Assembly (NCBI RefSeq): GCF_030384885.1
Contig: NZ_CP128616.1
Strand: one strand, 5' to 3'
Source: Escherichia coli
GTDB taxonomy: Bacteria; Pseudomonadota; Gammaproteobacteria; Enterobacterales; Enterobacteriaceae
DNA length: 4,445 nucleotides
Shown here: positions 263 through 4,445 of the stretch, piece after piece
Layout: every line of letters begins with the position of its first letter
Position numbering within the stretch: position 1 is the first letter of the stretch
Position numbers and translations under genes: made by a program
The notes under the pieces: generated by a model
Database searches by the model: none
Told to the model about the DNA's origin: nothing
What the model saw: the letters and a program-made list of their open reading frames with translations, nothing else

Positions 263-294
263 TTTGCGGGGCAAACCCTGCAAAAAGAAATCAT

Positions 295-324
295 ATTTAC
301 CATAACATCTGTATTGTACGCACC
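295..324 (-). other. cer-like XerC/XerD site-specific recombination core (plasmid multimer resolution site)
   Basis: Reverse complement of 295-324 is GGTGCGTACAA-tacagatg-TTATGGTAAAT. Both 11-bp arms match the ColE1 cer XerC and XerD arms as I recall them (GGTGCGTACAA / TTATGGTAAAT) with an 8-bp central region, as in cer. Confidence 0.8.
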
Positions 325-520
325 GTTAAAACGCGCTCAGCGCGATTCTGGCGCAAAAACCGTAAAAAGGGATGTTTTCCCCGGGGTAAACCGGAAAAAT
401 GCGTCAGGATTGTTTTCAGCGCGTTGCATGACTATGCATGAAACTGAATGGCAATCGATCCGGGCGCGTCCGCTGTCCCTGAGGCTTATTTTTGGCAGTT
501 TTCTTTCTGTCTGCGTCACA
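325..520. promoter_or_regulatory. Putative cer accessory region (ArgR/PepA side), with a candidate ARG-box-like dyad at 425-440
   Basis: Lies on the XerC-arm side of the core, where cer accessory sequences sit. tgcatgactatgcatg at 425-440 loosely resembles an ARG box (TNTGAATWWWWATTCANW). Extent and ARG box are inferred, not matched to a reference. Confidence 0.35.
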
Positions 521-558
521 TTCCATGCCAGAACACATCCGTCAGCAACGACATTCAA

Positions 559-780
559 CAGCCCACCATTAGCCCACACACAAAATACCGATGGGCACAC
601 CGATGTATCATAAAAATTTATCCGTTATATTTCATACAAATAAGAGGCCACCATCAGCCCACTCTATTAGCCCACAAAACGCCCACACTTTTGCTATCAC
701 TATGATTATCAATATAAAACCCACAAAAGTGGGCTGATGATGGGCTAACTGTGGGCGTAGAAGCCCATCATCAGCCCACC
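559..780. repeat. Array of GCCCAC/GTGGGC hexamer motifs (at least 9 copies) with AT-rich spacers and a perfect 17-bp inverted repeat (729-745 / 763-779)
   Basis: GCCCAC at 561, 572, 657, 670, 681, 773; GTGGGC at 729, 751; GCCCAT/ATGGGC variants at 740 and 763. Spacings of 11, 13, 11, 22, 22 bp. gtgggctgatgatgggc (729-745) is the exact reverse complement of gcccatcatcagcccac (763-779). Confidence 0.7.
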
Positions 781-1021
781 ACATCCGACAAAATAGAATT
801 TTTTGCCAGATAAACACCACTATAACGCACTGAATTTAAAGTAAAATCACGCAAAACGCAGTTTTGCGACAGGTGTGGTAAATGCAGGTCAGAGGAGAGG
901 GGAATTTCAGGCGCGGAGCCGGTCCTGGTTCGGGCTACAGGACTCTCAGAAAAAGCGAATAAATTTGCGCTGGCCGTCAGAGCATTACGCCGGGGTATCG
1001 GGGTGAAACCCTGAGCAGGAG

Positions 1022-1061
1022 GTAATTGTAATAGCGTCACGGGTGACGGTATTACAATTAC
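1022..1061. repeat. 19-bp near-perfect inverted repeat (palindrome) with 2-bp centre
   Basis: gtaattgtaatagcgtcac gg gtgacggtattacaattac; arms are reverse complements with one mismatch (G/G at 1034/1049). Confidence 0.8.
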
Positions 1062-1411
1062 ACATCCTGTCCTGTGTCAGGCAGCCGGATACGGTCGTCC
1101 TGGTGGCAACAGTCGGGCAGGGGGTACAACTGTACCCCGTCACATCCGCAAAAGATTTACGGCACGAAACAGGAGCGACGCAACAACTGCCGGTAACACG
1201 ACCCCATGAACGGGACAGGATGTGTAATCGTATAACCGCGCACGCACGTTCATCCGATTACAACCTGGTCAGGGCTTTACCCCGACACCCACGATGTGAT
1301 GAACGGATGAACATAAAACAACCGGAAAAACGCTCACTGTCCAGGCAAAGAACGGAACACGGCATAATCACATGATGCTGAATACAGAGACAGAACGGAG
1401 AACGACAGAAG

Positions 1412-1615: not shown

Positions 1616-1831
1616 AGACGCTGGCGAAAGCGGTCGCGGCTTGTCCGTGAGCGTTTTCGCCAGCAGACAAGCCCGCAGGGCGCGTCAGGACAGTGACCTG
1701 AGAAAGACACTGGCGCGTAAGTGCTCAAAGCAAACGGGCGGAGAAATTCCGCTTCCTCGCCCACTCGCTCACTACGTTCGGTCGCTGGGGCTGCGGCGAG
1801 CGGTGGCGGCTCTCTCATAACTGCAGACGGG

Positions 1832-1840
1832 TTATCCACA
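1832..1840 (+). promoter_or_regulatory. DnaA box (TTATCCACA) in the ColE1 origin region
   Basis: Exact TTATCCACA consensus at the position corresponding to the DnaA box of pBR322 ori (ACGGTTATCCACAGAATC). Confidence 0.7.
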
Positions 1841-1884
1841 AAATTGGGGGACAACCAGGACAGAACAAAGGCCGCGGCAGAGCC

Positions 1885-2440
1885 GTTTTTCCATAGGCTC
1901 CGCCCCCCTGACGAGCATCACAAAAACAGACGCTCAAGTCAGGGGGAGGCGAAACCCGACAGGACTATAAAGATACCAGGTGTTTCCCCCTGGAAGCTCC
2001 CTCGTGCGCTCTCCTGTTCCGACCCTGCCGCTTACCGGATACCTGTCCGCCTTTCTCCCTTCGGGAAGCGTGGCGCTTTCTCATAGCTCACGCTGTAGGT
2101 ATCTCAGTTCGGTGTAGGTCGTTCGCTCCAAGCTGGGCTGTGTGCACGAACCCCCCGTTCAGCCCGACCGCTGCGCCTTATCCGGTAACTATCGTCTTGA
2201 GTCCAACCCGGTAAGACACGACTTATCGCCACTGGCAGCAGCCACTGGTAACAGGATTAGCAGAGCGAGGTATGTAGGCGGTGCTACAGAGTTCTTGAAG
2301 TGGTGGCCTAACTACGGCTACACTGGAAGGACAGTATTTGGTATCTGCGCTCTGCTGAAGCCAGTTACCAGGTTAAGCAGTTCCCCAACTGACTTAACCT
2401 TCGAAAAACCGCCTCCCCAGGCGGTTTTTTCGTTTACAGA
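1885..2440 (-). ncRNA. RNAII replication primer precursor (ends approximate)
   Basis: RNAII promoter on the - strand: -35 TTGAGA (rc of 2469-2474), 17-bp spacer, -10 TAATCT (rc of 2446-2451), same hexamers as pBR322. 5' end placed about 2440 and 3' end about 555 nt downstream by analogy with ColE1. Confidence 0.75.
2331..2432 (+). ncRNA. RNAI antisense copy-number control RNA
   Basis: Begins ACAGTATTTGGTATCTGCGCTCTGCTGAAGCCAGTTACC as pBR322 RNAI. Upstream promoter -35 TTGAAG (2295-2300), 17-bp spacer, -10 CTACAC (2318-2323) as in pBR322. Terminator stem CCGCCT cccc AGGCGG followed by TTTTTT (2409-2430). Internal loop sequences differ from pMB1. Confidence 0.85.
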
Positions 2441-2512
2441 GCAAGAGATTACGCGTACAGAGCACGGATCTCAAGAAGATCGTAAGAAGAAAGTTAACAT
2501 GAGTGTTTTTAT

Positions 2513-2558
2513 CCCTCAAAAAGAAGGCTTCTATAAATAGAAGCCTTCTTTTTGAGGG
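2513..2558. terminator. 46-bp perfect palindrome / strong hairpin; likely bidirectional terminator between the higA 3' end and the RNAII promoter
   Basis: ccctcaaaaagaaggcttcta taaa tagaagccttctttttgaggg; 21-bp arms are exact reverse complements. T-rich sequence follows on the + strand; higA stop lies 26 bp away on the - strand. Confidence 0.65.
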
Positions 2559-2583
2559 ATAACTTATATTTTTTTAAAAAAAA

Positions 2584-2940
2584 TCATGCAATAGCATGTT
2601 TCTTCTCAGAATTATCAACAATGTGTTTCCTTTCTATGATTTCATGAGCGGGAATCACTCTGTCTATTTCTTCTTGCAATCGAGGGCTACTAGTAACCTC
2701 CCATAAATCAACAGACTGCTGTATATTTAGCCAGAACTTTGCAGTGGTATTGAAGGCTTTAGCCAACCTAAAAGCCATATCGGTAGACAGCTTTCTATTA
2801 TTGTTAACTAAAGCACTGGCAGAGTTTCTATGCACATTCAACATTTCAGCCAAGTCATTGATTTTTAAACCACTTGGTTCGAGATATTCATAAAGAATAA
2901 TATCCCCTACAGTTGATGGCTTTCTAGTTGCTTGGGACAT
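2584..2940 (-). CDS. higA: HigA-family antitoxin (XRE-type helix-turn-helix), 118 aa
   Basis: Translation ...TVGDIILYEYLEPSGLKINDLAEMLNVHRNSASALVNNNRKLSTDMAFRLAKAFNTTAKFWLNIQQSVDLW... has the pattern I recall for HigA/VapI antitoxins (PG.IL.EEFLEP.GL...LA..LGV.R......NG.R.I....A.RLA..FG.....WLNLQ). AGGAG sits 6 nt upstream of the ATG. Downstream of a HigB-family gene on the same strand. Confidence 0.85.
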   Translation of the reverse strand: MSQATRKPSTVGDIILYEYLEPSGLKINDLAEMLNVHRNSASALVNNNRKLSTDMAFRLAKAFNTTAKFWLNIQQSVDLWEVTSSPRLQEEIDRVIPAHEIIERKHIVDNSEKKHAIA

Positions 2941-3142
2941 GCTTTACTCCTAAATTTTTTACTTCTCTCTGTTAGATGAGGAAGATAAGTATTTCGTCTA
3001 TTACCAGCTGTAGCGATGAGTAATTATCTTAAATATAGTCACGTCATTTAGTTTATTAATCATTATTTGTAATGACATTTTAATGTAGGTGAGGGAACGC
3101 CTCACCTACTTGTTTTATAAGATAACAGCCACGACCTGTTAT
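2941..3142 (-). promoter_or_regulatory. higB-higA intergenic spacer (200 bp) with dyad elements; candidate independent higA promoter/operator
   Basis: Palindromes TCATTAtttgTAATGA (3060-3075) and GATAACAGccacgacCTGTTATC (3121-3143); - strand candidate -10 GATAAT; strong RBS for higA. No promoter has been demonstrated. Confidence 0.4.
3085..3109. terminator. Hairpin (10-bp perfect stem, 5-nt loop) inside the higB-higA spacer; terminator-like
   Basis: gtaggtgagg gaacg cctcacctac; followed on the + strand by TTGTTTTAT and on the - strand by A/U-rich sequence. Lies 33 nt downstream of the higB stop on the - strand. Confidence 0.5.
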
Positions 3143-3460
3143 CTATCGGTAATCATGTGGATCGAGATACAAATCCTCGATTCCGTTTTCACCCCACTTA
3201 AATATTAAGCGGTACTTCTCATTCACCCGTATGGATGAATACCCTGTCAATGGAGGGTTGAGATTCTCAAATCGGTTTCCCGGGGGAGACCGCAAATCTC
3301 CAACTTTATCAGCAGCATTCAGCATATCCAGCTTGCGACCTAATGAAGCACTAATCGCAGTTGGAATCTTTCGATTGGCTTTACCATATTTGTAAAACTG
3401 GTATAGCCAATCGTCTCGAAACTGAATGCGGCAATCATCATGTTCATGATCTTGCTGCAT
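3143..3460 (-). CDS. higB: HigB-family toxin (RelE/ParE superfamily, plasmid maintenance system killer type), 105 aa
   Basis: C-terminal region ...DLRSPPGNRFENLNPPLTGYSSIRVNEKYRLIFKWGENGIEDLYLDPHDYR matches the family signature I recall (DLRSPPGNRLE.L.G.R.GQ.SIR.N..WRL.F.W.......I.DYH). GAGGT RBS 9 nt upstream of the ATG. Toxin precedes antitoxin, as in hig loci. Confidence 0.85.
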   Translation of the reverse strand: MQQDHEHDDCRIQFRDDWLYQFYKYGKANRKIPTAISASLGRKLDMLNAADKVGDLRSPPGNRFENLNPPLTGYSSIRVNEKYRLIFKWGENGIEDLYLDPHDYR

Positions 3461-3646
3461 TTTTCTTTTACCTCAATTTTTGCCGCAACTTGGCAATTTT
3501 TTAGATCACCTTCTTACCTCCGATATAGTACAGCAAACACAAGAAATGCACAACAGCACAGTGCACTTGTGCAACCAATAACCATACTGTAGAATGCACC
3601 CACACACAGTGCAGATGTGCAAAATAGAGGGTAATTTGGAGGTTAC
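3461..3646. promoter_or_regulatory. Divergent promoter/operator region between higB (-) and the 80-aa ORF (+), with repeated TGCAC/GTGCA dyads
   Basis: Perfect palindrome TGCACttGTGCA (3562-3573), near-palindrome TGCAGatGTGCA (3610-3621) and further TGCAC copies at 3547 and 3595. Two copies of a roughly 19-bp repeat cacagtgca(c/g)(t/a)tgtgcaa (3557-3574, 3605-3622). Candidate higB promoter on the - strand: -35 TTGTGC (rc of 3548-3553), 17-bp spacer, -10 TACTAT (rc of 3525-3530). Candidate + strand promoter: -35 TTGTGC (3567-3572), 17 bp, -10 TAGAAT (3590-3595). Confidence 0.55.
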
Positions 3647-3889
3647 ATGGCTCTTGTTCGTTCAGGAAACAAAAGCAAGATTTTTGAAGCAGATAAGAAG
3701 TTTAACTCGGTTTTTGACACTGAATATCAGCCGGGAGAAACATGTAAATATGAAGGGATTTATAAATGTACCGGTTGCGGTAAAGAAGTAACTATCGCAG
3801 GTGGGAAAAAAATCCCACCACAAAACCACCACCAACATACCCCCGCGCAAGGGAACATTCGTTGGCAATTGTTTGTTTATGCTCAGTGA
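3647..3889 (+). CDS. Hypothetical small protein (80 aa) with Cys-x6-Cys-x2-Cys and a His-rich C-terminal segment; possible metal-binding or zinc-ribbon-like
   Basis: GGAGG RBS 4-5 nt upstream of the ATG; ORF starts right after the palindromic operator region, divergent from higB. Sequence ...CKYEGIYKCTGCGKEVTIAGGKKIPPQNHHQH.... No family recognised from memory. Confidence 0.55.
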   Translation: MALVRSGNKSKIFEADKKFNSVFDTEYQPGETCKYEGIYKCTGCGKEVTIAGGKKIPPQNHHQHTPAQGNIRWQLFVYAQ

Positions 3890-4064: not shown

Positions 4065-4083
4065 ATATCTACAGCTGACACTG

Positions 4084-4099
4084 ATTTACCATAGCATCC
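4084..4099 (+). repeat. Copy 1 of a 16-bp motif ATTTACCATA(G/A)CATC(C/T) (XerD-arm-like)
   Basis: atttaccatagcatcc; 15/16 identical to 4365-4380 and 14/16 to 295-310 (the XerD arm plus adjacent central bases of the cer-like site). Lies 33 nt upstream of the 4132 start codon. Confidence 0.7.
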
Positions 4100-4131: not shown

Positions 4132-4335
4132 ATGAGTAATGAATTAGACAGCCTTTCAGAAGTAGTTAAAGGACTCACAAAGATAGAGCTGCCTGGCGGC
4201 GGTGGCGGTGAAACCGATAGCCCTGTAGTTGAGGCAGCTATAGCTGTTGGCATTGTAGGGGCTGCTGCATATGGGATTTATAAGCTTTTTGGTCGCGCAG
4301 AACCCCAGAAAGATGAGGACAAACTCGGTTTCTAG
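4132..4335 (+). CDS. Hypothetical small membrane peptide (67 aa): acidic N-terminal segment, Gly5 run, one predicted transmembrane helix
   Basis: ATG at 4132 preceded by AGGTG; translation MSNELDSLSEVVKGLTKIELPGGGGGETDSPVVEAAIAVGIVGAAAYGIYKLFGRAEPQKDEDKLGF. The longer track ORF 3862-4335 is rejected because it spans the terminator at 4036-4064. Confidence 0.6.
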   Translation: MSNELDSLSEVVKGLTKIELPGGGGGETDSPVVEAAIAVGIVGAAAYGIYKLFGRAEPQKDEDKLGF

Positions 4336-4364
4336 AACCATAAGGCAGCATCAAAACGGCATTC

Positions 4365-4380
4365 ATTTACCATAACATCC
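4365..4380 (+). repeat. Copy 2 of the 16-bp motif ATTTACCATAACATCC (exact XerD-arm match, no convincing XerC arm)
   Basis: Reverse complement reads ...ggatg TTATGGTAAAT. The 11-bp arm is identical to the cer XerD arm; the flanking candidate XerC arm matches cer at only about 5 of 11 positions. Lies 46 nt upstream of the ATG at 4426. Confidence 0.7.
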
Positions 4381-4425: not shown

Positions 4426-4445
4426 ATGAGCAATAAGATCTATAG
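4426..4445 (+). CDS. 5' end of the tandem-repeat protein gene (3'-partial in window; continues in frame at position 1 if the molecule is circular)
   Basis: ATG at 4426 with GGAG 6 nt upstream; encodes MSNKIY then R from the junction codon (4444-4445 plus position 1), followed by TVSHVDGW... at 2 onward. The repeat unit sequence itself continues across the junction (aataagatctatag|a versus aataaaatctacagga). Confidence 0.6.

What the first reader, a model, noticed from the sequence alone, without database searches (positions are those of the whole stretch)
300..1400. About 1.1 kb (a quarter of the molecule) with no convincing protein-coding capacity
Every track ORF in this interval lacks an RBS, has arbitrary-looking composition (Arg/His/Pro/Ser-rich) or overlaps repeat arrays. 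For a 4.4-kb plasmid this is a large non-coding block. Besides cer, it may hold regulatory RNAs (an Rcd-like RNA is expected from cer-type sites) or relics of a deleted mobilisation region.
Basis: inference. Interest (0 to 1): 0.45.

Follow-up and report, generated by a model that had tools for sequence, protein, structure and literature searches.

The report
Gene-free block holding three transfer origins
The 1.1-kb gene-free quarter of this small ColE1-type plasmid is a dimer-resolution site followed by three borrowed origins of transfer, which probably let a plasmid with no transfer genes ride on three different kinds of conjugative plasmid.

Summary
Window 263-1411 has no credible gene: no ORF matches Pfam or NCBIfam, and every ORF is frameshifted, truncated or start-less in a 79-84% identical relative that keeps the DNA motifs.

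The block is made of cis-acting sites:
1. A cer-type Xer site (core 295-324, accessory sequence to about 495, minus strand).
2. An orphan F-family oriT (about 556-960). It has a nic hairpin (850-880) and a 240-bp array of GCCCAC motifs.
3. An IncI1/I-gamma-type oriT (991-1075, plus strand).
4. An inverted IncK2/Z-type oriT (1209-1297, minus strand).

The GCCCAC array sits where TraM and TraY sites lie in F-like plasmids. In 15 large plasmids the array motif co-varies perfectly with the TraM allele: GCCCAC with MPRQHIY, GCAC(C/T)G with MPRQNVY. Sibling small plasmids carry the other allele at the same place.

There is no relic of the ColE1 mbe/bom region. An Rcd-like RNA is neither shown nor excluded.

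The closest described relatives are pEC156 (ColE1 type, F plus R64 oriTs, both shown functional) and pBuzz (two inverse I-complex oriTs). This is a new variant of a known kind and moderately interesting. Mobilisation itself is inferred, not tested.

The parts
295..324 (-). Xer crossover core. Read on the minus strand: XerC arm GGTGCGTACAA (324-314), 8-bp central region TACAGATG (313-306), XerD arm TTATGGTAAAT (305-295).
   Evidence: Both arms are identical to ColE1 cer in the alignment; only the central region differs (ColE1 has TTAAGGGA).
325..495 (-). cer-type accessory sequence. It holds the ArgR-box position (about 424-441) and the segment homologous to ColE1 rcd (about 407-327, ending in the hairpin CGCGCTGAGCGCG followed by TTTT).
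   Evidence: It aligns with ColE1 cer and pECO29. Hundreds of small ColE1-type plasmids match window 300-503 at 81-89%. Its orientation relative to RNA II is the one reported as invariant: ArgR side met first, then XerCD (PMC2831885; RNAI at 2333-2433 plus strand).
556..800 (.). Array of 12 (A)GCCCAC-type motifs in both orientations, mostly 11 bp apart. Inferred to be the TraM (sbmA/B/C-like) and possibly TraY binding region of an F-family oriT, 'GCCCAC allele'. Sub-blocks: 560-577 (2 direct), 645-686 (4 direct), 718-779 (palindromic block, 18-bp arms 729-746 and 762-779).
   Evidence: The motif is enriched. The block order parallels the traM-nic intergenic region of large F-like plasmids L262-L266 and L268. 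The motif co-varies with the TraM allele in 15 of 15 plasmids. Motif cores are 93% conserved against 80% for spacers in CP117579 (Fisher p = 0.027). Sibling small plasmids carry the GCAC(C/T)G allele at the same position.
607..635 (-). Promoter-like site (ATGAAA-17 bp-TATGAT) pointing left, at the position where helper plasmids have the traM promoter region. Possibly a relic traM promoter; there is no traM gene downstream.
   Evidence: Consensus scan. The core 609-636 is invariant in four plasmids. The positional parallel with L262 ('ttttcatgacgttaagaGACCAC') is seen. The function is inference only.
801..849 (+). AT-rich segment between the array and the nic hairpin. In F this interval holds the IHFa and TraY sites.
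   Evidence: It is 78-84% identical to the same interval of large MOBF/MPF_F plasmids and aligns with F. The F site map comes from bioRxiv 10.1101/2024.12.19.629322. No IHF or TraY site was tested here.
850..880 (+). F-type nic region: hairpin CGCAAAACgcaGTTTTGCG (850-868), then ACAGGTGT|GGTA. The nick is predicted between 876 and 877 on the plus strand.
   Evidence: It aligns column for column with F (GCAAAAACTTGTTTTTGCGTGGGGTGT GGTGCTTT) and with four F-like plasmids; TTTTGCG and GTGTG are invariant. It lies in the traM-geneX (SLT) intergenic region of the helpers. It is 94% conserved in CP117579 against 78-83% for its flanks. The nick position in F is from established knowledge.
881..960 (+). 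Leading-side flank of the F-type oriT.
   Evidence: It travels with the nic region in sibling small plasmids at 90-94% identity. Similarity to the large helper plasmids stops at about 899.
991..1075 (+). Orphan IncI1/I-gamma-type oriT: short inverted repeat (about 998-1016), 19-bp inverted repeat (1022-1040 and 1043-1061), nick region ACATCCTG|TCCTGT. The nick is predicted between 1069 and 1070 on the plus strand, 8 nt after the repeat.
   Evidence: It is 89% identical to the 85 bp immediately upstream of nikA in hundreds of conjugative plasmids, for example pV404, typed IncI-gamma/K1, MOBP, MPF_I. The arms and nick region are identical to pV404 in alignment A2. The structure of the R64 oriT is described in PMC3817090.
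1076..1208 (.). Spacer between the two I-complex oriTs, with an 8-bp perfect inverted repeat at 1121-1138.
   Evidence: It is shared as one piece with a 2117-bp Salmonella plasmid at 92% over window 991-1294. Window 1040-1189 is 76% identical to an 88-kb E. albertii plasmid.
1209..1297 (-). Orphan IncK2/Z-type (I-complex) oriT in inverse orientation. The nick region ATTACACATCCTG|TCCCGT reads on the minus strand, with the nick predicted between 1216 and 1215.
   Evidence: It is 90-91.5% identical to the region immediately upstream of the nikA-like gene (annotated mobA) of IncK2/Z plasmids such as pOT-ESBL-0589. The nick-proximal arm and nick region are identical in A2. It forms inverted repeat I2 with 1047-1075. 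It is 93% conserved in CP117579.
1298..1411 (+). Untranslated region upstream of rop (promoter and ribosome-binding region presumed).
   Evidence: It is 91% conserved in CP117579. rop at 1412-1615 is confirmed.

Best explanation
Window 263-1411 is a gene-free cluster of cis-acting sites on a ColE1-type plasmid that has no relaxase or other transfer gene.

(1) A cer-type site lets host XerCD, with ArgR and PepA, resolve plasmid multimers.

(2) Three orphan origins of transfer follow. Each imitates the oriT of a different conjugative plasmid type, so that helper's relaxosome can nick the small plasmid and export one strand.
- The F-family oriT (about 556-960) has an inverted repeat plus a GGTGT|GG nic for a TraI-type relaxase. 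Upstream lies an array of GCCCAC motifs for the TraM allele beginning MPRQHIY (WP_001137956.1). Bound TraM would dock the relaxosome on the helper's coupling protein TraD.
- The IncI1/I-gamma-type oriT (991-1075, plus strand) and the IncK2/Z-type oriT (1209-1297, minus strand) each have a NikA-binding repeat followed by ACATCCTG|T for a NikB relaxase.
- Because these two are inverted, different strands would be transferred depending on the helper.

What is shown: the homologies, the site anatomy, the absence of genes and the covariation of motif with TraM allele.

What is inferred: protein binding, nick positions and actual mobilisation.
For: Non-coding status.

cer: the core arms are identical to ColE1 and the accessory region aligns with it. 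The orientation relative to RNA II is as described in PMC2831885.

F-type oriT:
- Window 802-899 matches the traM-SLT intergenic region of MOBF/MPF_F plasmids.
- The nic hairpin aligns with F itself.
- The array runs parallel, block by block, to the traM-proximal arrays of L262-L266.
- The covariation is perfect. Nine plasmids with TraM MPRQNVY carry 3-14 GCAC(C/T)G motifs and no GCCCAC. Six plasmids with TraM MPRQHIY carry 4-8 GCCCAC motifs and no GCAC(C/T)G.
- TraM beta-ribbon residues 3, 5 and 7 set motif specificity, and the motifs are plasmid-specific (PMC3159463).
- Small sibling plasmids carry either allele at the same locus.

I-complex oriTs.

Precedents:
- pEC156 is ColE1-type with cer, rom, an F-type oriT and an R64-type oriT. 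It was mobilised by F and by R64, and mobilisation was abolished when both oriT loci were removed (PMC4743918).
- pBuzz has two inverse oriTs and was mobilised by a B/O plasmid (cited in PMC9282650 and PMC11389934).

Selection signal: the nic cores are conserved at 93-94% against 71-83% for neighbouring segments in the divergent relative.
Against: - No experiment here shows nicking, protein binding or transfer.
- The window's array is only 55-59% identical to the helper arrays, so the link rests on motif, order and position rather than overall identity.
- The covariation cannot separate TraM from TraY or another lineage-specific protein, because the two helper lineages differ throughout (their TraM proteins are about 50% identical).
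- In complete RefSeq E. coli genomes, GCCCAC-type small plasmids occur in 15 genomes and the cognate helper array in 2, with no co-residence.
- The one co-resident F-like plasmid seen (CP098957 with CP098960, strain RHB47-C04) carries the other allele.
- The IncI1-type oriT is poorly conserved in CP117579 (71%), so not every oriT is maintained in every relative.
Confidence: 0.8

Rival explanations
1. The GCCCAC array (540-800), with its AT-rich segment, is an iteron-type replication origin or a partition centromere. It would be served in trans by a Rep or Par protein of another replicon, and would have nothing to do with transfer.
For: Short motifs about 11 bp apart in both orientations, next to an invariant AT-rich block (609-636), look like iterons or a parC-type centromere. 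Plasmids sharing the array share no protein except Rop, so any binding protein must act in trans.
Against: - The array sits exactly where the traM-proximal sites lie relative to a conserved F-type nic hairpin.
- Large F-like plasmids have the same motif in the same block order between traM and nic.
- The motif tracks the TraM allele in 15 of 15 plasmids.
- A sibling allele occupies the same slot in other small plasmids.
- Replication is already accounted for by the ColE1 RNAI/RNAII origin.
Confidence: 0.05
2. The oriT-like sequences are decaying, non-functional relics of past recombination with conjugative plasmids, and the block is effectively junk apart from cer.
For: Cognate helpers are rarely or never co-resident in complete genomes. 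The IncI1-type copy has diverged in CP117579 and a 130-bp insertion lies between the oriTs there. nikA and traM are absent.
Against: - The nic cores and nick-proximal repeats are identical or nearly identical to those of the helpers.
- They are better conserved than their flanks.
- The block persists on plasmids with unrelated cargo from several hosts and countries.
- Equivalent orphan oriTs were shown experimentally to work in pEC156 and pBuzz.
Confidence: 0.1
3. One reading: the block mainly encodes regulatory RNAs (Rcd-like and others) or relics of the ColE1 mbe mobilisation genes.
For: The cer homologue includes the segment corresponding to ColE1 rcd and its terminator hairpin. There is a promoter-like site at 635-607 on the minus strand.
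Against: - The only Rfam matches in 300-1400 are two chance-level hits at 700-795, far below their gathering scores.
- The inferred Pcer hexamers are not conserved.
- The fold of the Rcd-equivalent segment is no better than shuffles (z -1.5).
- There is no similarity to ColE1 mbe/exc, and no bom.
Confidence: 0.15
4. One of the ORFs is a real small protein, for example the PGAP 'hypothetical protein' over cer or the 110-aa ORF at 1043-1375.
For: PGAP annotates a hypothetical protein over the cer region in four relatives. The ORFs are intact in plasmids more than 96% identical.
Against: No family match was found. All these ORFs are broken in the 79-84% identical relative, while the DNA motifs persist. 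They overlap sites with a well-supported cis function.
Confidence: 0.03

Closest known systems
pEC156 (also pKPN2, pSe-Kan, pColG): ColE1-type plasmids with orphan F-type and R64-type oriTs
   Same: ColE1 replicon with cer and rom and no mob genes. An F-type oriT lies next to an R64-type oriT between cer and rom. In pEC156 both loci were shown to support mobilisation, by F and by R64 (PMC4743918).
   Different: The pEC156 F-type oriT is 86.5% identical to F itself. The window's copy derives from a different F-like lineage (TraM beginning MPRQ..., about 80% identity and only around nic) and has a GCCCAC site array. The window also has a third, inverted IncK2/Z-type oriT.
pBuzz (Moran and Hall 2019): cryptic plasmid with two inversely oriented I-complex oriTs
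   Same: Two inverse oriTs related to the I-complex (B/O/K/Z and I1), no relaxase or accessory gene, and mobilisation by a co-resident B/O plasmid. Plasmids of pBuzz size (1982-1983 bp) match both window oriTs, and a 2117-bp Salmonella plasmid shares the whole 991-1294 module at 92%.
   Different: pBuzz is a 1982-bp rolling-circle replicon. The window is a ColE1 theta replicon with cer, rom and an additional F-type oriT. I could not read the pBuzz paper itself, only papers that cite it.
F-plasmid oriT and relaxosome (nic, traI sites, IHFa/b, sbyA/C, sbmA/B/C)
   Same: An inverted repeat followed by GGTGT|GG. An AT-rich interval. Arrays of short plasmid-specific motifs extending to where traM starts.
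   Different: No traM, traY or traI on the plasmid. The motif is GCCCAC rather than the A(G/C)CG(C/G)T of F or the GANTC of pED208 and R1. Binding was not tested.
ColE1 cer / Rcd
   Same: XerC and XerD arms are identical. The accessory region is homologous. The orientation relative to RNA II is the same.
   Different: The central region differs (TACAGATG against TTAAGGGA). A 5-bp insertion and substitutions fall where ColE1 has its -35 and -10 hexamers, so Rcd expression is uncertain.
pCERC7/NTP16 group (small ColE1-like plasmids with nikA and an R64-like oriT)
   Same: Small ColE1-like plasmids that rely on an I-complex relaxase supplied in trans, with variable segments next to the multimer resolution site (PMC9282650).
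   Different: Those plasmids encode their own NikA. The window has no nikA: the oriT homology ends where nikA would begin.

Membership tests
cer-type Xer multimer-resolution site | A 30-bp core made of an XerC arm, a 6-8 bp central region and an XerD arm | tested here: met
   GGTGCGTACAA-TACAGATG-TTATGGTAAAT at 324-295 on the minus strand. Both arms are identical to ColE1.
cer-type Xer multimer-resolution site | About 180 bp of accessory sequence on the XerC side, with an ArgR box, homologous to known cer sites | tested here: met
   The region aligns with ColE1 cer and pECO29. Hundreds of ColE1-type plasmids match window 300-503 at 81-89%.
cer-type Xer multimer-resolution site | Fixed orientation relative to RNA II (ArgR side met first) | tested here: met
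   RNAI lies at 2333-2433 on the plus strand, so RNA II runs leftwards and meets the accessory sequence (495-325) before the core.
cer-type Xer multimer-resolution site | XerCD/ArgR/PepA-dependent dimer resolution | not testable with these tools
   Requires in vivo recombination assays.
Rcd regulatory RNA | A Pcer promoter (15-bp spacer) inside cer driving a transcript of about 70 nt that ends at the hairpin before the XerC arm | tested here: inconclusive
   The terminator hairpin is conserved. The inferred ColE1 hexamers TTGCAT and TAAAAT are not conserved. The scan found no promoter there, and the fold z-score is -1.5. The location of the Pcer hexamers is my inference from the 15-bp spacer stated in PMC5935869.
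F-family (MOBF) oriT | Homology to the traM-geneX intergenic region of F-like conjugative plasmids | tested here: met
   Window 802-899 is 78-84% identical to that region in more than 40 MOBF/MPF_F plasmids.
F-family (MOBF) oriT | An inverted repeat followed by the conserved nic sequence GGTGT|GG | tested here: met
   Positions 850-880 align with the F sequence GCAAAAACTTGTTTTTGCGTGGGGTGTGGTG. The nick position itself is taken from established knowledge of F.
F-family (MOBF) oriT | Arrays of plasmid-specific TraM-binding motifs between nic and traM | tested here: met
   The GCCCAC array runs parallel to the arrays of L262-L266, and the motif co-varies with the TraM allele in 15 of 15 plasmids. 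That TraM rather than TraY is the binder is inferred.
F-family (MOBF) oriT | IHF and TraY sites between nic and sbmC | not tested
   AT-rich segments lie at the expected places (700-722, 801-849), but I did no formal site search.
F-family (MOBF) oriT | Nicking by TraI and helper-dependent transfer | not testable with these tools
   Needs mating assays and nick mapping.
IncI1-type (NikA/NikB, MOBP) oriT | Homology to the roughly 85 bp immediately upstream of nikA | tested here: met
   Window 991-1075 matches pV404 immediately next to the nikA start. Window 1209-1290 matches pOT-ESBL-0589 immediately next to its nikA-like gene, annotated mobA.
IncI1-type (NikA/NikB, MOBP) oriT | Two sets of inverted repeats (about 17 bp and 8 bp) plus the nick region ...CATCCTG|T | tested here: met
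   The 19-bp repeat lies at 1022-1061, the short repeat at about 998-1016, and ACATCCTGT at 1062-1070. The inverse copy has an imperfect repeat and an identical nick region. The feature list is from PMC3817090. The 8-nt distance to the nick is from memory of Furuya and Komano.
pBuzz-type double oriT module | Two inversely oriented I-complex oriTs with no relaxase or accessory gene | tested here: met
   Inverted repeat I2, alignment A2 and matches to 1982-2117-bp plasmids.
pBuzz-type double oriT module | Rolling-circle replicon | tested here: not met
   The window replicates by a ColE1 RNAI/RNAII origin with Rop. It shares the module, not the plasmid family.
ColE1 mbe/bom mobilisation region (relic) | Similarity to the mbeA-D/exc genes or to the bom nick region | tested here: not met
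   No BLAST similarity within 300-1400 apart from the Xer core. The bom nick sequence is found in ColE1 but not in the window, even with up to 3 mismatches allowed.
Iteron origin or partition centromere | A cognate Rep or Par protein gene, or similarity to known iterons or centromeres | tested here: not met
   No such gene is on the plasmid. Plasmids that share the array share only Rop. The array finds only sibling small plasmids in PLSDB, the phage set and the E. coli genomes.

The most novel reading that the evidence does not exclude
The F-type orphan oriT of this plasmid family may be modular. The nic core is kept while the whole 250-bp TraM-site array is exchanged between two specificity alleles, GCCCAC and GCAC(C/T)G, that track two TraM alleles of a little-studied F-like lineage.

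The GCCCAC allele is carried on a multicopy plasmid and is several-fold commoner than its helper. It might therefore act not only as a docking site but also as a TraM sponge that perturbs traM autoregulation and the helper's own transfer. The leftward promoter inside the array (635-607) could then make transcription into cer respond to TraM.
Probability: 0.15. Interest if true: 0.6.

Novelty: new variant of a known kind. Interest (0 to 1): 0.38.

Why it matters
Plasmids that carry only an oriT are now thought to be a large share of 'non-mobilisable' plasmids, and how wide their range of helpers can be is an open practical question for gene spread.

This 4.4-kb plasmid packs three oriT mimics (F-like, IncI1/I-gamma and IncK2/Z) next to cer. 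Three conjugative systems could therefore move it and its toxin-antitoxin cargo.

The motif/TraM-allele covariation gives a ready-made natural pair of specificity alleles. These could be used to test how TraM recognition limits which helper a hitch-hiking plasmid can use. It also gives two motif signatures for annotating such oriTs, which BLAST-based oriT finders would miss: the window's array is only 55-59% identical to helper arrays.

Tried and rejected
- **Rfam, E-value mode.** Only RNAI (outside the interval) is real. The hits at 700-795 are chance-level, and the miRNA hits at 2499-2570 come from a perfect palindrome.
- **BLAST of the array alone against plasmids, phages and E. coli genomes.** Only sibling small plasmids were found, which first suggested an orphan element.
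- **Short-query BLAST of the palindrome at E up to 10.** Nothing useful.
None of the fetched loci had an F-type nic motif.
- **Searching for the cognate helper through TraM homologues of the co-resident plasmid.** All variants of 72-81% identity still had GCAC-type arrays. The cognate type surfaced only as two partial hits, which matched the nic side but not the array.
- **ssDNA folding of the array.** The significant z-scores are due solely to the 18-bp palindrome, so I dropped a single-strand initiation or Frpo-like structure as an explanation.
- **ColE2-type origin resemblance at 803-826.** Rejected because the segment is poorly conserved in CP117579.
- **MraZ (GTGGG repeats) titration.** I considered this from memory and dropped it once the TraM-allele covariation was found.
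- **The Furuya and Komano paper (PMC179678).** It is not held in the library.
Full report
**What the window is.** The 4445-bp window is a complete small ColE1-type plasmid.
- RNAI lies at 2333-2433 on the plus strand (Rfam 91 bits), so RNA II and replication run leftwards.
- rop is at 1412-1615 (Pfam Rop, E 9e-34).
- The cargo includes a higB-like toxin gene and an HTH_3 gene.

**The observation.** The span between the stop of the repeat ORF (262) and the rop start (1412) has no supported gene.
- Ten ORFs in or overlapping 300-1400 have no Pfam or NCBIfam match.
- In the most divergent full-length relative, E. albertii pEA5_4 (CP117579, 79-84% identical), all 11 ORFs tested have lost the start, shifted frame or gained an early stop.
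- Depositors annotate nothing here in most relatives. PGAP's occasional 'hypothetical protein' lies over cer and is also broken in CP117579.
The block is not empty, though.

**Segment 1: cer.** On the minus strand, 324-295 reads GGTGCGTACAA-TACAGATG-TTATGGTAAAT. These are the XerC and XerD arms of ColE1 cer with a different 8-bp central region.
- The next roughly 170 bp align with the ColE1 and pECO29 accessory sequences.
- Going in the direction of RNA II, the accessory (ArgR) side is met before the core. This is the orientation reported as invariant in ColE1-like plasmids (PMC2831885).
- That paper and PMC5935869 place Pcer inside cer, co-directional with RNA II, with a 15-bp spacer. In ColE1 the only fit is TTGCAT-15 bp-TAAAAT at 3795-3821 (my inference).
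- The window has substitutions and a 5-bp insertion there, no scanned promoter and a fold no better than shuffles. The terminator hairpin before the XerC arm is kept.
- An Rcd-like RNA is therefore neither shown nor excluded.

**Segments 3 and 4: two I-complex oriTs.** Megablast of 300-1400 hit 1302 plasmids, 671 of them conjugative. The conjugative hits fall on two short intervals.
- Window 991-1075 matches the 85 bp directly upstream of nikA in IncI-gamma/K1 (MOBP, MPF_I) plasmids such as pV404.
- Window 1209-1290 matches, on the other strand, the region directly upstream of the nikA-like gene of IncK2/Z plasmids such as pOT-ESBL-0589.
- Alignment A2 shows the known anatomy in both copies: a short inverted repeat, the long NikA-type inverted repeat, then ATTACACATCCTG|TCC(C/T)GT. 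The nick-proximal arm and nick region are identical to the helpers.
- The feature list for R64-type oriTs, and the fact that the 17-bp repeat varies with the NikA allele, come from PMC3817090.
- The two copies converge (inverted repeat I2). The whole 991-1294 module is shared at 92% with a 2117-bp Salmonella plasmid and, in two pieces, with plasmids of pBuzz size.
- pBuzz is a 1982-bp rolling-circle plasmid with two inverse oriTs. It was mobilised at high efficiency by a co-resident B/O plasmid (citing Moran and Hall 2019).

**Segment 2: an F-family oriT.** At first the GCCCAC array (561-779) found only eight sibling small plasmids, nothing in phages and only small plasmids in 5426 E. coli genomes.

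The adjacent 800-992 was informative. Window 802-899 is 78-84% identical to large MOBF/MPF_F plasmids, always in the intergenic region between traM and the SLT transglycosylase gene. That is where F has its oriT.

Aligned with F itself, the window's CGCAAAACGCAGTTTTGCGACAGGTGTGGTA matches F's GCAAAAACTTGTTTTTGCGTGGGGTGTGGTG. This predicts a nick at 876/877 on the plus strand.

In those helper plasmids the 300 bp between nic and traM is an array of GCAC(C/T)G/GGCAC motifs. Sibling small plasmids (pSCU-478-2, pRHB33-C12_6, pKOr024_5, pRHBSTW-00814_5) carry that same array between cer and the nic hairpin. One of them co-resides with such a helper. The window's GCCCAC array therefore occupies the slot of the TraM/TraY site region.

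**Finding the cognate helper.**
- TraM variants at 72-81% identity still had GCAC arrays.
- In one search, two large plasmids matched only the nic side of the query.
- Their traM-nic region is a GCCCAC array with the same block order as the window: two direct motifs next to traM, an AT-rich stretch with '...tttcat...taagaG(A/G)CCAC', four direct motifs, a palindromic block, an AT-rich stretch, then the nic hairpin.
- Their TraM (WP_001137956.1) begins MPRQHIYMTQ, where the other lineage has MPRQNVYMKQ.
- Fifteen PLSDB plasmids (42-174 kb, E. coli and E. marmotae) encode this allele at 92% identity or more.
- Across 15 large plasmids the covariation is perfect. The 9 MPRQNVY plasmids have 3-14 GCAC(C/T)G motifs and no GCCCAC. 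The 6 MPRQHIY plasmids have 4-8 GCCCAC motifs and no GCAC(C/T)G.
- Wong et al. (PMC3159463) showed three things: TraM reads short plasmid-specific motifs through ribbon residues 3, 5 and 7; a conservative change at residue 5 probably switches the motif (GANTC against A(G/C)CG(C/G)T); and motifs about one helical turn apart are bound cooperatively.
- The F relaxosome map places the TraI, IHFa, TraY and sbmC sites within about 143 bp of nic, with sbmB and sbmA further towards traM. This fits the palindromic block at 718-779 as sbmC-like and 560-686 as sbmA/B-like.
- In CP117579 the motif cores are better conserved than the spacers (93% against 80%, p = 0.027).

**Mechanism.** The plasmid has no relaxase, no coupling protein and no accessory gene. 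It offers three cis sites to relaxosomes supplied in trans.
- *Shown:* the homologies, the anatomy, the covariation and the lack of genes.
- *Inferred:* protein binding, nick positions and transfer.
- *Precedent:* pEC156 has the same layout (ColE1 origin, cer, rom, an F-type oriT beside an R64-type oriT). It was mobilised by F and by R64, and lost mobilisation when both loci were removed (PMC4743918). Plasmids with several oriTs are documented in E. coli, up to five per plasmid (PMC10123127).

**Caveats.**
- The window's array is only 55-59% identical to the helper arrays.
- The covariation cannot separate TraM from TraY.
- GCCCAC-type small plasmids (15 genomes) outnumber the cognate helper arrays (2 genomes) in complete E. 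coli genomes, and none co-reside.
- In strain RHB47-C04 the co-resident F-like plasmid has the other allele. A plasmid from a different RHB47 isolate, described as from a poultry-farm soil sample, has the matching allele.

**What it is not.** It is not a relic of ColE1 mbe/exc/bom, not an iteron origin or centromere on present evidence, and not a protein-coding region.

**Verdict.** This is a new variant of a known kind: a ColE1-type oriT-only plasmid with three oriT mimics, one of which carries a previously uncharacterised TraM-site allele. Interest is moderate.

Noticed in passing
window 4436-4445 joined to 1-262: The 69-bp tandem repeats (2-258) are coding. With the ATG at 4436, read across the circular junction, they give a 93-aa protein of four 23-aa repeats (NKIYRTVSHVDGWNGLPQYEIRG). 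No Pfam family passes its cut-off (best is DUF1514, 23.8 bits against a cut-off of 25).
   Followed up: partly
window 4083-4099 and 4364-4380 (compare 295-311): Two further copies of the XerD-arm-like sequence ATTTACCATA(A/G)CATC lie in the same orientation as the cer core and bracket the 67-aa ORF at 4132-4335. I saw no convincing XerC arm beside them. They may be traces of Xer-associated cassette exchange next to the resolution site.
   Followed up: no
window 747-761: The 15-bp spacer between the perfect 18-bp inverted arms (729-746 and 762-779) is present as its exact reverse complement in CP130162, and inverted with a few substitutions in CP117579. This is a small inversion polymorphism, consistent with hairpin or cruciform-mediated flipping.
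   Followed up: partly
window 2584-3460, minus strand: The HigB-like toxin gene (3143-3460) and the HTH_3 antitoxin-like gene (2584-2940) are about 200 bp apart, which is unusual for a higBA pair. The gap holds a terminator-like hairpin (3085-3109, plus strand).
   Followed up: no
window 2509-2562: A perfect 26-bp palindrome sits just beyond the RNAI/RNAII promoter region. It produces spurious microRNA-family matches in Rfam and is probably a bidirectional terminator that insulates the replicon from the cargo.
   Followed up: no
window 3545-3622: Two 30-nt direct repeats (AATGCAC...CACAGTGCA..TGTGCAA, 77% identical) lie upstream of the 80-aa ORF at 3647-3889. They look like an operator. The ORF has no Pfam match.
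   Followed up: no
window 1620-1860: The window has no ColE1-type bom. ColE1 positions 1365-1532, which contain the bom nick sequence, have no counterpart between rop and the origin. Only the flanks align.
   Followed up: yes
L005 (CP117579) 2190-2625: In this relative the IncI1-type oriT is replaced by a divergent sequence (71% identity, different long repeat), and about 130 bp are inserted between the two I-complex oriTs. This suggests oriT turnover within the family.
   Followed up: no
RefSeq complete E. coli genomes: Small plasmids carrying the GCCCAC array occur in 15 of 5426 genomes, several of them O111 STEC. The matching F-like helper array occurs in 2 genomes and the other allele's helper in about 15. 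No strain holds both a small plasmid and its matching helper.
   Followed up: partly
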